In this document: positions 8,543 through 9,589 of the stretch, piece by piece
Position numbering within the stretch: position 1 is the stretch's first letter
How the letters are laid out: every line of letters begins with the position of its first letter
NCBI GenBank assembly: GCA_934130025.1
Contig: CAKOXG010000001.1
Span: 154-64,153 of the forward strand
DNA from: an uncultured Clostridia bacterium
Lineage (GTDB): Bacteria; Bacillota; Clostridia; TANB77; CAG-508
Direction: 5' to 3'
Length of the DNA: 64,000 bases
Position numbers and translations under genes: made by a program
Notes under the pieces: model-generated
Databases searched by the model: none
Told to the model about the DNA's origin: nothing
What the model saw: only the letters and a program-made list of their open reading frames with translations

Positions 8543-9589
8543 ATGAGAAAATTTGATTATTCTTTTCTAGATAATGGATTACTTCCATCAAACTTAATTA
8601 ATATAACTGGTGTGATTTATTCCTTAAAGACAGGTAGCGAAATAAGAAAAGACGAATTTAAAAAAATATTTACAGAATTAGAAAAAGTAGCTAAAGTACA
8701 GTCAATTAAAAGTTCAAATGCTATAGAAGGAATTGTTACAAGTGATGAACGAATAAAAGCGATTGTAAACAAATCAAGCGAACCGCTAAATCATAATGAG
8801 GCGGAGATTGCAGGATATAGAGATGCATTAAATGAAATTCATTTAAATTATGAATTAATAGAATTTAATGAAAAAACAATTTTAAGACTACACGAAATAA
8901 TGATGTCATATAGTGGGGATGAATATGGTGGAAAATATAAAGATGAAGATAATGTTATTCTTGAAATAGACAATGAAGGAAATAGAAAGGTAAGATTTAG
9001 ACCAACAGTTGCATCTGAAACACCAAAAGCAATGGAACAATTAATACTCGCATATTTAGAAGCAAGAGATAATTCAAATATAAATAAACTTTTATTAATT
9101 CCTTGTGTAATTCTTGATTTTTTATGTATTCACCCATTTAAAGACGGGAATGGAAGAATGTCAAGGCTATTATCTTTATTACTTTTATACAAGAATGGTT
9201 TTGATGTTGGTAAATATATTTCTTTTGAAGAACAAATAAATAAAAATAAAGGTTATTATTATGAAGCTTTAAAGGGATCTTCAACGAACTGGGAGAAAAA
9301 TGAAAATACATATATTCCATATATTGAGAATTTTTTAACTACATTATATATGTGTTATAAAGAACTTGATAAAAGATTTAATGTTGTAAATAGTAATAAA
9401 ATTACAAAAAAAGCAAGAATAGAAGCCACAGTATTAAATAGTTTAACTGCTATTTCCAAATCAGAGATTTGTGAAATACTTCCAGATGTAAGCCCAACAA
9501 CAGTTGAAGCAGTATTAGGAAAGATGGTAAAGGAAGGATTGATTGAAACAATAGGAAATGGAAGAAATACAAAATATAGAAAAATATAA
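8543..9589 (+). CDS. Fic/Doc family protein (class II, N-terminal inhibitory helix) with C-terminal winged-helix domain
   Basis: Fic active-site motif HPFKDGNGRMSRLL (HxFx[DE]GNGRxxR). N-terminal SNAIEG matches the [ST]xxxE[GN] inhibitory motif. RBS AGGAGG at 8531. Confidence 0.8.
   Translation: MRKFDYSFLDNGLLPSNLINITGVIYSLKTGSEIRKDEFKKIFTELEKVAKVQSIKSSNAIEGIVTSDERIKAIVNKSSEPLNHNEAEIAGYRDALNEIHLNYELIEFNEKTILRLHEIMMSYSGDEYGGKYKDEDNVILEIDNEGNRKVRFRPTVASETPKAMEQLILAYLEARDNSNINKLLLIPCVILDFLCIHPFKDGNGRMSRLLSLLLLYKNGFDVGKYISFEEQINKNKGYYYEALKGSSTNWEKNENTYIPYIENFLTTLYMCYKELDKRFNVVNSNKITKKARIEATVLNSLTAISKSEICEILPDVSPTTVEAVLGKMVKEGLIETIGNGRNTKYRKI

What the first reader, a model, noticed from the sequence alone, without database searches (positions are those of the whole stretch)
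8543..9589. Class II Fic (AMPylase-type) protein as cargo of the intervening element
The Fic motif HPFKDGNGRMSRLL is intact and the N-terminus carries the [ST]xxxE[GN] inhibitory-helix motif (SNAIEG), so the enzyme is predicted to be autoinhibited. A C-terminal winged-helix domain follows. Fic proteins are commonly toxins or effectors on mobile DNA. Inside a putative sporulation-excised element it would be carried in the genome and perhaps expressed only in a specific compartment.
Basis: partly seen in the sequence, partly recalled or inferred. Interest (0 to 1): 0.55.

Follow-up and report, generated by a model that had tools for sequence, protein, structure and literature searches.

The report
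Self-repressing Fic enzyme on pdaA-splitting element
The gene is a real Fic-type AMP-transferase with its own DNA-binding domain and conserved operator, an ordinary member of a known enzyme class, carried on a small mobile element that splits a spore-cortex gene and whose recombinase gene has an unusual conserved frameshift.

Summary
ORF 8543..9589 encodes a 348-aa class II Fic protein with an intact HPFKDGNGRMSR loop, an S58-x3-E62-G63 inhibitory motif and a C-terminal winged helix. Its closest solved relative is 8UQU, about 47% identical over the full length. It shares its architecture with SoFic, CccR and CbFic2, so it is a new member of a known kind.

New points:
- The gene travels as a self-contained cassette of σA promoter, two operator-like inverted repeats and the ORF. 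The cassette is 70-91% identical across Clostridia, Treponema, Negativicutes and others, with no conserved partner gene.
- It is one of several interchangeable cargos of a 4,796-bp serine-recombinase element (8294..13089) inserted at a CA dinucleotide inside pdaA. Strains of the same species with an empty site exist.
- Nothing links Fic expression to a sporulation compartment.

Two side findings are more interesting than the Fic. The element family's recombinase carries a strictly conserved +1 frameshift at AUU-CGG-A, where CGG is the rarest codon, and both halves are under purifying selection, which suggests programmed frameshifting. The split gene, pdaA, is forespore-expressed in model species, unlike the targets of all described intervening elements.

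The parts
7848..8293 (+). 5' part of pdaA (spore cortex delta-lactam de-N-acetylase), up to the crossover
   Evidence: TIGR02884 spore_pdaA model positions 2-95/224, E 1.4e-38. The intact 278-aa PdaA P0406 starts at this ATG.
8292..8293 (+). attL crossover dinucleotide CA
   Evidence: Empty-site contig L096 aligns to window 2726-8293 and 13088-19479 with a 2-nt overlap.
8294..13089 (+). Integrated 4,796-bp serine-recombinase element (includes one copy of the CA core)
   Evidence: blastn against the same-species empty site L096, flanks 99.35% and 99.55% identical. The identical element occurs in independent assemblies L001-L006.
8455..8481 (.). Distal operator-like inverted repeat O2 (TGCATAA-N13-ATATGCA)
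   Evidence: One of only two relaxed-pattern matches in the 64-kb window. The family consensus is CTGCATAT-N13-ATATGCAG.
8490..8518 (+). σA-type promoter TTGACC-17 nt-TAAAAT with extended TG
   Evidence: Best promoter-like site in 8250-11500, 10/12 matches. It is conserved with the gene across 80 loci.
8498..8526 (.). Proximal operator-like inverted repeat O1 (CTGCATAT-N13-ATATGCAT) bracketing the -10 box
   Evidence: The strict repeat CTGCATA-N15/16-TATGCAG occurs 77 times in the leaders of 56/80 loci and 2 times elsewhere in 1.125 Mb.
8543..9589 (+). Fic CDS (348 aa): class II Fic with C-terminal wHTH
8714..8731 (+). Inhibitory-helix motif S58-N-A-I-E62-G63
   Evidence: Read directly from the sequence. 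Invariant in 30 relatives. Aligns with SSNRLEG of 8UQU. CccR has S59ARIEG (PMC9755527).
9131..9166 (+). Fic active-site loop H197-PFKDGNGRMS-R208
   Evidence: Read directly from the sequence. Invariant. Matches HxFx(D/E)GNGRxxR.
9407..9586 (+). C-terminal winged helix-turn-helix (about aa 289-348)
   Evidence: pLDDT 76-94 in this segment.
9614..10669 (+). orf351: co-cargo protein of unknown function and orphan fold, with an N-terminal C-x2-C…G-x2-C motif
   Evidence: No Pfam, NCBIfam, PADLOC or PDB match. 255 cluster representatives. AF2 pLDDT 87.6, with no Foldseek match in PDB or BFVD.
10671..11162 (+). orf163: co-cargo small protein with a hydrophobic N-terminal stretch (probable membrane anchor), unknown function
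   Evidence: No family match. Found with orf351 also in element L090/L091, which lacks the Fic.
11251..11282 (+). Conserved terminator-like hairpin plus T-run that closes the cargo region
   Evidence: Invariant in six diverged elements. Also lies directly after the Fic in L007.
11294..11301 (+). Conserved CATAGTAT, a candidate sporulation-sigma-type -10 upstream of the small ORF and recombinase
Evidence: Alignment A4.
11328..11447 (+). Conserved 39-aa ORF directly upstream of the recombinase (candidate directionality or regulatory factor)
   Evidence: Conserved in all six elements, with a shared YYG…LK(E/D/V)I(F/Y/L)T…(F/L)(I/M/F)K core. The function is inferred.
11455..11790 (+). Large serine recombinase, 0-frame part (catalytic Resolvase domain, through Ile codon ATT)
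   Evidence: PF00239 E 1.8e-18. dN/dS 0.06-0.23.
11788..11799 (+). Conserved frameshift site ATT CGG AGA TAA. A +1 shift after ATT reads GGA GAT AAT…
   Evidence: The in-frame out-group reads ATT GGA GAC AAT (IAIGDNVDT). CGG is the rarest sense codon, 3/13,508.
11792..13057 (+). Large serine recombinase, +1-frame part (rest of the catalytic domain, Recombinase and Zn-ribbon domains, coiled coil)
   Evidence: PF07508 E 7.7e-16 and PF13408 E 3e-11. dN/dS 0.11-0.21.
13088..13089 (+). attR crossover dinucleotide CA
13090..13480 (+). 3' part of pdaA
   Evidence: Polysacc_deac_1 positions 72-124/124. The conceptual join is 99-100% identical to intact PdaA proteins P0401-P0425.

Best explanation
ORF 8543..9589 encodes a class II Fic AMP-transferase fused to a C-terminal winged-helix DNA-binding domain. 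This is the architecture of SoFic, CccR and CbFic2.

Shown: the catalytic loop and the inhibitory Ser/Glu motif are intact and invariant. The gene moves between very distant gut bacteria as a compact unit of its own σA promoter, two copies of a 9-bp inverted repeat (consensus CTGCATAT-N13-ATATGCAG, one copy bracketing the -10 box) and the ORF, with no partner gene. In this window it is the first cargo gene of a 4.8-kb serine-recombinase element inserted in pdaA.

Inferred: the protein dimerises and its two wHTH domains bind the inverted repeats, repressing its own promoter, as demonstrated for CccR and indicated for SoFic. This keeps a potentially toxic enzyme at a low level. Glu62 of the inhibitory helix further holds the enzyme in a deAMPylase or inactive state. 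On a trigger, most plausibly phage infection, it AMPylates an essential host protein and arrests growth. The candidate target, by analogy with SoFic, is an EF-Tu-like GTPase. That would make it a single-gene abortive-infection or defence module that benefits the mobile DNA carrying it. Its expression logic is autonomous and is not tied to sporulation.
For: Fic identity: Pfam E 2.2e-15; 8UQU E 1.9e-68, full length; motif residues invariant.

SoFic-type architecture and defence link: the PADLOC SoFic model matches at E 8.7e-34 over residues 52-345 of a 361-position model. Distant but significant matches to CbFic2/8CIL, CccR/7XUX and SoFic/3EQX.

Autonomous cassette: blastn homology in about 80 unrelated loci begins 45-90 bp upstream of the ATG and ends at the stop codon. 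No neighbour cluster is shared by more than 6 of 80 loci.

Operator: the strict repeat occurs 77 times in leaders and 2 times in the other 1.1 Mb, with a fixed spacer of 15/16, positioned over the -10 box and about 45 bp upstream. In the 64-kb window only the Fic leader matches. Precedent: CccR autorepresses through inverted repeats near its -35/-10 boxes, as a dimer, through its wHTH (PMC9755527). SoFic binds the first 100 bp of its own promoter and AMPylates EF-Tu. EcSofic is toxic and acts in abortive infection.

Mobile and defence context: relatives sit between phage terminase and portal genes, and next to integrases, PDC-S01, Mads, Abi and R-M components. They occur on 181 plasmids and in PHROG 5978.

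Cargo status: sister pdaA elements carry other cargo in the same slot.
Against: No biochemical or phenotypic data exist for this subfamily, and no paper was found for 8UQU. It is only distantly related to SoFic: the NCBIfam SoFic equivalog scores 39.5 bits against a cut-off of 550, so the target and the defence role are analogy. Most immediate neighbours are ordinary housekeeping genes, so defence-island enrichment is modest. The window's own operators deviate from the consensus: the O1 right half is ATATGCAT and O2 is degenerate. The AF2 model of the Fic was poor (pLDDT 47), so the geometry of Glu62 and of the dimer could not be checked. No AS1-like antitoxin gene is conserved next to it, unlike EcSofic.
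Confidence: 0.6

Rival explanations
1. The Fic is an element-stabilising addiction module, in effect a one-protein toxin-antitoxin with the inhibitory helix as a built-in antitoxin. Cells or spores that lose the element lose repression or de-AMPylation and are poisoned, so the role is maintenance of the element rather than phage defence.
For: Class I Fic toxins are genuine TA systems, and toxin promoters are typically autorepressed; CccR is discussed in these terms. The gene is solitary and sits on mobile DNA. The element is polymorphic in the population, so stabilisation would be selectable.
Against: A single stable polypeptide has no differential-decay mechanism. Many copies lie between housekeeping genes with no element to stabilise, for example L008. 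Sister pdaA elements persist without any Fic.
Confidence: 0.12
2. It is mainly a transcription factor and deAMPylase, with a housekeeping or regulatory role. It would control other genes or reverse AMPylation, as CccR regulates additional promoters and dimeric SoFic and CbFic2 are efficient deAMPylases.
For: The wHTH and the conserved operator. Bifunctionality of relatives that carry the same Glu.
Against: In 64 kb only its own leader carries the operator. Strong cross-phylum horizontal transfer with variable context does not fit a host-integrated regulator. No other AMPylase partner is evident.
Confidence: 0.13
3. It is a phage or element 'moron' used offensively, to modify host proteins during lytic growth or to exclude superinfecting phages.
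For: In 5-6 loci it lies between the terminase large subunit and portal genes. PHROG 5978 matches at E 2e-47. Two phage records carry relatives.
Against: Only a minority of loci are prophages. The σA promoter with autorepression suggests expression in the lysogen or host, which is functionally the same as defence. Superinfection exclusion overlaps with the best explanation.
Confidence: 0.1

Closest known systems
8UQU 'Fido domain-containing protein' (solved structure, no paper found)
   Same: Full-length alignment of residues 45-347 to 63-364, about 47% identity, E 1.9e-68. The SSNxxEG inhibitory motif, the HPFxDGNGRMSR loop and the C-terminal wHTH are all the same.
   Different: A different protein of 366 aa. 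Nothing is known about its function, and no publication is in the searched library.
SoFic / EcSofic (Shewanella oneidensis, E. coli): class II Fic-wHTH, single-gene anti-phage system
   Same: Domain order of N-terminal helix and αinh, Fic, then wHTH. Canonical AMPylation loop. The PADLOC SoFic model matches at E 8.7e-34 over nearly the full length. SoFic binds its own promoter.
   Different: Very low sequence similarity: phmmer E 3e-4 over about 100 residues, and the NCBIfam equivalog scores 39.5 bits against a cut-off of 550. No conserved downstream AS1-like small gene. EF-Tu targeting and defence are untested here. The hosts are Firmicutes and gut anaerobes.
CccR (Yersinia pseudotuberculosis, PDB 7XUX)
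   Same: Class II Fic with a wHTH and an inhibitory motif S59ARIEG (here S58NAIEG). It autorepresses as a dimer through inverted repeats flanking the -35/-10 boxes, which is the arrangement predicted here.
   Different: CccR is a T6SS-secreted effector. Its operator is AGATAATCAT-N26-ATGATAATCT, whereas here it is CTGCATAT-N13-ATATGCAG, usually in two copies. Only a distant sequence match, E 1e-7 to 3.5e-6.
CbFic2 (Coxiella burnetii, PDB 8CIL)
   Same: DUF4172-like N-terminus, Fic and wHTH, with a DNA-dependent switch between AMPylase and deAMPylase. Profile match at E 9.5e-9.
   Different: It is a eukaryote-directed effector that targets histone H3 and binds DNA non-specifically. No Pfam DUF4172 or Fic_N match was found here.
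Sporulation-gene intervening elements (skin in sigK, SPβ in spsM, gin in gerE, vfbin, vrin)
   Same: An element inserted inside the coding sequence of a sporulation gene, with a large serine recombinase at one end and a small ORF next to it. Precise excision would restore the gene. At 4.8 kb and without phage genes it resembles the gin class (PMC5595907).
   Different: The target pdaA is σG/forespore-expressed in C. difficile and B. subtilis, not a mother-cell gene. The recombinase gene needs a +1 frameshift. The element is an insertion polymorphism within the species. Sporulation-linked excision has not been shown.

Membership tests
Fic/Fido superfamily (PF02661) | Profile match above the curated threshold | tested here: met
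   57.7 bits against a cut-off of 24, E 2.2e-15, residues 108-215.
Fic/Fido superfamily (PF02661) | AMPylation-competent active-site loop HxFx(D/E)GNGRxxR | tested here: met
   H197-P-F-K-D-G-N-G-R205-M-S-R208, invariant in 30 relatives.
Class II Fic (Engel et al. 2012 classification; own knowledge) | Inhibitory motif [S/T]xxxE[G/N] on the same chain, N-terminal to the Fic core | tested here: met
   S58-N-A-I-E62-G63, 135 residues upstream of His197. Invariant. Aligned with the motif of 8UQU and analogous to S59ARIEG of CccR.
Class II Fic | The inhibitory Glu reaches the second Arg of the Fic motif and blocks the ATP γ-phosphate | tested here: inconclusive
   The AF2 model was too poor in this region (pLDDT below 50). 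This is inferred from homology only.
Class I Fic toxin-antitoxin (VbhT/VbhA, FicT/FicA) | A separate small antitoxin gene that supplies the inhibitory helix | tested here: not met
   Homology across 80 loci ends at the promoter and at the stop codon. There is no conserved adjacent small ORF.
SoFic-type Fic-wHTH proteins / SoFic defence system | C-terminal winged-helix domain after the Fic domain | tested here: met
   (wHTH segment pLDDT 76-94).
SoFic-type Fic-wHTH proteins / SoFic defence system | Match to the defence-system HMM (PADLOC SoFic) | tested here: met
   PDLC03963 E 8.7e-34, residues 52-345 on model positions 58-349 of 361.
SoFic-type Fic-wHTH proteins / SoFic defence system | Orthology to SoFic (NCBIfam equivalog NF046030) | tested here: not met
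   39.5 bits against a cut-off of 550. It is a distinct subfamily.
SoFic-type Fic-wHTH proteins / SoFic defence system | Binds its own promoter / autoregulation | tested here: inconclusive
   In silico only. A conserved inverted repeat overlaps the -10 box: 77 copies in leaders against 2 elsewhere.
SoFic-type Fic-wHTH proteins / SoFic defence system | Protects against phage by abortive infection; AMPylates EF-Tu | not testable with these tools
   Known only for EcSofic and SoFic.
SoFic-type Fic-wHTH proteins / SoFic defence system | Downstream small antitoxin AS1 (EcSofic) | tested here: not met
   No conserved downstream ORF. In the window the next gene is orf351, which is absent from the other 80 Fic loci.
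Sporulation-gene intervening element | Inserted within the coding sequence of a sporulation gene so that precise excision restores it | tested here: met
   pdaA is split at 8293/13088. The conceptual join is 99-100% identical to intact PdaA proteins, and the empty site was confirmed at DNA level.
Sporulation-gene intervening element | Encodes a functional site-specific recombinase | tested here: inconclusive
   The large serine recombinase is present but split by a +1 frameshift. The frameshift is conserved, both halves are under purifying selection (dN/dS 0.06-0.23), and the element has spread between species. This fits programmed frameshifting, which is unproven.
Sporulation-gene intervening element | The interrupted gene is mother-cell-specific, so excision does not remove the element from the germ line | tested here: not met
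   From the literature only. pdaA (CD1430) is σG-dependent and 'produced in the forespore' in C. difficile (PMC3789822). Its regulation in this organism is unknown.
Sporulation-gene intervening element | Excision occurs during sporulation | not testable with these tools
   The only hint is a conserved CATA-type -10-like motif upstream of the small ORF and recombinase.

The most novel reading that the evidence does not exclude
The Fic is a passenger on a previously undescribed family of small integrative elements that always insert at one CA dinucleotide inside pdaA, a forespore (germ-line) sporulation gene. Their large serine recombinase would be made only through a conserved programmed +1 ribosomal frameshift at AUU-CGG-A, a hungry-codon site at the rarest codon of the genome. 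Excision and re-integration would then be gated by translational state during sporulation or germination. The element would serve as a swap-in slot for autonomous defence or toxin cassettes such as this self-repressing Fic.
Probability: 0.3. Interest if true: 0.8.

Novelty: new member of a known kind. Interest (0 to 1): 0.45.

Why it matters
For the Fic itself the value is modest. It adds a large, strongly conserved and horizontally mobile gut-bacterial subfamily to the Fic-wHTH class. It also supplies a sharply defined candidate operator (CTGCATAT-N13-ATATGCAG, two copies around a σA promoter). That makes autoregulation and the link between DNA binding and AMPylation directly testable in a system with a solved homologue (8UQU).

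The context matters more. Conserved +1 frameshifting in a large serine recombinase found no precedent in one search of the paper library. Such frameshifting could be a natural way to throttle integrase expression. An intervening element in a forespore-expressed gene would challenge the rule that such elements survive because they excise only from the terminal mother-cell genome.

Tried and rejected
(1) AF2 model of the Fic from 30 relatives of 80% identity or more: mean pLDDT 47. It was not used for fold searches. Deeper alignments could not be built from eligible sequences.
(2) Recombinase as a decaying pseudogene or sequencing error. Rejected because the same split occurs in independent assemblies and in diverged elements with a strictly conserved shift site, dN/dS is 0.06-0.23 on both halves, and recombinase dS (0.2-0.54) is below host-gene dS (0.77-2.8).
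(3) Stimulatory RNA structure 3' of the shift site: none (-6.6 kcal/mol, negligible covariation).
(4) Conserved partner or antitoxin gene for the Fic: none.
(5) A functional link between Fic and orf351/orf163. Rejected because the pair also occurs in element L090/L091 behind a different 480-aa first gene, and it is absent from all other Fic loci.
(7) Rfam gathering scan of the whole window: no hits.
(8) Literature searches for 8UQU, for pdaA intervening elements and for frameshifting in serine recombinases: nothing relevant.
(9) Inverted repeat as an RNA hairpin rather than an operator. Unlikely, because the left arm of O1 lies upstream of the -10 box and so upstream of the transcript start.
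Full report
OBSERVATION. An ATG-initiated ORF lies at exactly 8543..9589 on the + strand and encodes 348 aa. Pfam Fic (PF02661) matches residues 108-215 at E 2.2e-15, 57.7 bits against a cut-off of 24. The best solved relative is 8UQU, a 'Fido domain-containing protein'. It aligns over residues 45-347 at about 47% identity, E 1.9e-68, and at 1.8e-74 with a family profile. In an alignment of 30 relatives, the inhibitory motif S58-x-x-x-E62-G63 and the catalytic loop H197-P-F-K-D-G-N-G-R205-x-S-R208 are invariant. Four results support the C-terminal winged helix. 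A near-threshold DIP2311-like_C match covers residues 304-346. The 8UQU alignment runs to the C-terminus. The alignment to CccR/7XUX runs to residue 340. This segment is also the only confident part of an otherwise poor AF2 model (residues ~290-348, pLDDT 76-94).

WHAT KIND OF FIC. The inhibitory helix is on the same chain and N-terminal to the Fic core, which defines class II. The architecture of N-terminal helices, Fic domain and wHTH is that of SoFic, EcSofic, CccR and CbFic2. The PADLOC 'SoFic' defence model matches nearly full length (E 8.7e-34), and PHROG 5978 matches at E 2e-47. Similarity to SoFic proper is low: the NCBIfam equivalog scores 39.5 bits against a cut-off of 550, and phmmer gives E 3e-4. 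This is therefore a distinct subfamily whose only solved member (8UQU) has no paper in the searched library.

The literature on the relatives is as follows.
- SoFic dimerises through an N-terminal helix, AMPylates and de-AMPylates EF-Tu, and binds the first 100 bp of its own promoter (bioRxiv 10.64898/2026.07.09.737422).
- EcSofic is toxic when expressed in E. coli, and the paper presents Sofic as an abortive-infection defence protein. It has a small downstream antitoxin (PMC12249575).
- CccR autorepresses as a dimer through inverted repeats at its -35/-10 boxes (PMC9755527).
- CbFic2 switches between AMPylase and deAMPylase on DNA binding (PMC10628234).

A SELF-CONTAINED MOBILE CASSETTE. A database search found 7,996 proteins at E ≤ 1e-20. 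In species-representative genomes, proteins 70-91% identical occur in Clostridia, Oscillospiraceae, Lachnospiraceae, Treponema, Phascolarctobacterium, Flexilinea and Bulleidia. This distribution is clear horizontal spread. DNA homology to the window begins 45-90 bp upstream of the ATG (about 8455 or 8498) and stops at the stop codon in dozens of unrelated loci. Clustering all neighbours within ±6 kb shows no conserved partner, since the largest cluster is shared by 6 of 80 loci. The 135 immediate neighbours fall into 134 Pfam families. The recurrent ones are phage portal, terminase, AAA_14/DUF4143 (PADLOC PDC-S01), HTH_3 and AbiEii-like ATPases, plus single R-M, Mads, Jet and Abi components. 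Relatives about 40% identical sit on 181 plasmids and in two phage records, annotated only as 'Fic family protein' or 'hypothetical protein', or not annotated at all.

THE CONSERVED LEADER. Almost every locus reads TTGACt-aTCTGCATAT-aaaatgaTAAAAT-ATATGCAGA…GGAGG…ATG. The strict inverted repeat CTGCATA-N15/16-TATGCAG occurs 77 times in the 146-nt leaders of 56 of 80 loci. It occurs only twice in the remaining ~1.1 Mb of locus DNA. The spacer is fixed, and there are two preferred positions: one bracketing the -10 box and one about 45 bp upstream.

In the window, the promoter is TTGACC (8490-8495), a 17-nt spacer, then TAAAAT (8513-8518) with an extended TG. This is the best promoter-like site in the region. 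O1 is 8498-8526 (CTGCATAT-N13-ATATGCAT) and O2 is 8455-8481. These are the only relaxed-pattern matches in 64 kb. By analogy with CccR and SoFic, I infer that a Fic dimer binds these repeats through its wHTH and represses its own synthesis. This has not been shown. The left arm of O1 lies upstream of the -10 box, so an RNA-hairpin reading is unlikely. This promoter and operator accompany the gene into non-sporulating hosts, so there is no support for compartment-specific expression.

THE ELEMENT. Upstream ORF 7794..8321 matches spore PdaA model positions 2-95 of 224, and 13109..13480 matches the C-terminal part of the deacetylase domain. The conceptual join (…EGHIVGN|HTVNHKS…) is 99-100% identical over 100% of its length to intact 278-284-aa PdaA proteins, found on roughly 110 contigs (P0401-P0425). 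One such contig is L096, whose flanks are 99.35% and 99.55% identical to the window. It aligns to window 2726-8293 and 13088-19479 with a 2-nt overlap, CA. The element is therefore window 8294..13089 (4,796 bp). It is a clean serine-recombinase insertion that is polymorphic within the species, and the Fic-bearing version was seen on 12 contigs.

Its gene order is:
- Fic (8543..9589), orf351 (9614..10669) and orf163 (10671..11162);
- a conserved terminator-like hairpin (11251-11282);
- a conserved CATAGTAT motif (11294-11301);
- a conserved 39-aa ORF (11328-11447);
- a large serine recombinase (11455..13057).

Sister elements sit at the same pdaA position in other species and carry entirely different cargo. 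L087-L089 have a 791-aa protein plus PRAI, HAD and Ham1 genes. L090/L091 have a 480-aa protein followed by the same orf351 and orf163. L092 has 146- and 672-aa proteins, and L093 carries a metabolic cluster. L026 has the layout Fic, two ORFs, intact recombinase, but it splits a GH94-like gene. In L007 and L008 the Fic cassette stands alone between housekeeping genes, and in L007 it lies just upstream of an intact pdaA.

THE RECOMBINASE FRAMESHIFT (side finding). The recombinase is read in two frames. The 0 frame ends …RYIAIRR*, and the +1 frame continues GDNVDTLRSDGF…. The same split is present in independent assemblies. It is also present in all close relatives: about 20 protein clusters at 81-92% identity are called only as C-terminal pieces of 399-429 aa, and full-length proteins appear only at 80% identity or below. 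In four diverged elements the site GCA ATT CGG AGA is invariant, while both flanks carry synonymous changes. In L087 the 0-frame stop lies 15 codons further on, so the stop codon is not part of the signal. In-frame out-group elements, also in pdaA, read ATT GGA GAC AAT = IAIGDNVDT. This is exactly the product of a +1 shift after AUU.

Nei-Gojobori estimates give dN/dS of 0.06-0.23 for the upstream part and 0.11-0.21 for the downstream part. Recombinase dS is 0.2-0.54, against 0.77-2.8 for the flanking host genes. The frameshift-bearing element has therefore spread between species and must be active. CGG is the rarest sense codon in the window's genes, 3 of 13,508. The most economical reading is a programmed +1 ribosomal frameshift at AUU-CGG-A, driven by a hungry codon as in the yeast Ty1 site (the Ty1 comparison is from my own knowledge). 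No stimulatory RNA structure was found. A search of the paper library found no report of frameshifting in serine recombinases. Mobilisation in trans by an intact paralogue is the main alternative, but it does not explain purifying selection on both halves.

FORESPORE TARGET (side finding). In C. difficile, pdaA (CD1430) is σG-dependent and 'produced in the forespore' (PMC3789822). The same holds in B. subtilis (own knowledge). All described intervening elements split mother-cell genes, and that is why their excision does not remove them from the germ line (PMC4191935). If the pdaA element excises developmentally, it would do so in the spore's own chromosome. The alternatives are re-integration, a persistent circle, a different regulation of pdaA in this lineage, or a second paralogue. 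None of these can be resolved from the window.

CO-CARGO. orf351 belongs to a small family of 255 cluster representatives. The family has an invariant N-terminal C-x2-C…G-x2-C motif and conserved acidic residues. It has no Pfam or PDB-profile match. Its AF2 model is confident (pLDDT 87.6, pTM 0.84), but nothing resembles it in PDB or BFVD by Foldseek. It is not linked to the Fic, because the orf351/orf163 pair also occurs behind a different first gene in L090.

VERDICT. The finding is real and correctly identified, but it belongs to a known kind: a class II Fic-wHTH enzyme of the SoFic/CccR type. What this analysis adds is that it is an autonomous unit of promoter, operator and ORF, spreading across gut phyla, with a precisely defined candidate operator. 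It is also a swappable passenger of a 4.8-kb pdaA-specific serine-recombinase element. Its most likely role is an autorepressed toxin or abortive-infection module, at moderate confidence and by analogy. The element's conserved recombinase frameshift and its forespore-gene target are the parts that deserve follow-up.

Noticed in passing
window 11455-13057 (shift site 11788-11799); also L087 8628-10233, L090 8670-10275, L092 8652-10257: The element's large serine recombinase needs a +1 frameshift at the invariant site GCA ATT CGG AGA. The shift is conserved across diverged elements and both halves are under purifying selection (dN/dS 0.06-0.23). CGG is the rarest codon (3/13,508), and in-frame out-groups read IAIGDNVDT. 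It is a candidate programmed +1 ribosomal frameshift, and a search of the paper library found no report of one in serine recombinases.
   Followed up: yes
window 7848-8293 + 13090-13480 (pdaA); L087, L090, L092, L093, L095: A family of small elements inserts at the same CA dinucleotide inside pdaA in several Clostridium-like species. pdaA is σG/forespore-expressed in C. difficile and B. subtilis, whereas all described intervening elements split mother-cell genes. Both pdaA halves stay intact in all the elements examined.
   Followed up: partly
window 11328-11447: A conserved 39-43-aa ORF (shared YYG…LK(E/D/V)I(F/Y/L)T…(F/L)(I/M/F)K core) lies 8 nt upstream of the recombinase in every member of the element family, including the unshifted ones. 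It is a candidate recombination directionality factor or regulator.
   Followed up: partly
window 11251-11301: A nearly invariant stretch across six elements: a terminator-like hairpin with a T7 run, followed by GTAACTTGCTTCATAGTATTAAAC. The CATAGTAT resembles the -10 of sporulation sigma factors (σE/σG/σK type) rather than σA.
   Followed up: partly
window 9614-10669 (orf351) and 10671-11162 (orf163): orf351 is a member of an uncharacterised family of about 255 cluster representatives, with an invariant C4, C7, G19, C22 motif. Its AF2 model is confident (pLDDT 87.6) but has no Foldseek match in PDB or BFVD. It always pairs with a small protein, orf163, that has a hydrophobic N-terminus (probable membrane anchor).
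   Followed up: yes
L007 9965-12013: In a different Clostridiaceae species, a 91%-identical Fic cassette lies directly upstream of an intact pdaA. It carries the same terminator stretch as window 11221-11311 and replaces the LytTR regulator and part of the agr-type kinase present in the window. Why the same cassette sits next to pdaA in two different arrangements is unexplained.
   Followed up: partly
L026 2093-15375: An element with the same layout (Fic, two unknown ORFs, intact 545-aa serine recombinase) splits a giant GH94/glucan-synthase-like ORF that is not a sporulation gene. This shows that Fic-carrying recombinase elements also target other genes.
   Followed up: partly
window 4593-7498: An agr-type quorum-sensing locus lies immediately upstream of pdaA. 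It comprises AgrB, a 39-aa ORF in the position of the autoinducer-peptide precursor (called in the syntenic L001/L002 contigs), a GHKL histidine kinase and a LytTR response regulator.
   Followed up: no
window 43000-44000: A local GC peak (0.44 against about 0.29 elsewhere) with no Rfam hit at gathering threshold. It was not examined further.
   Followed up: no
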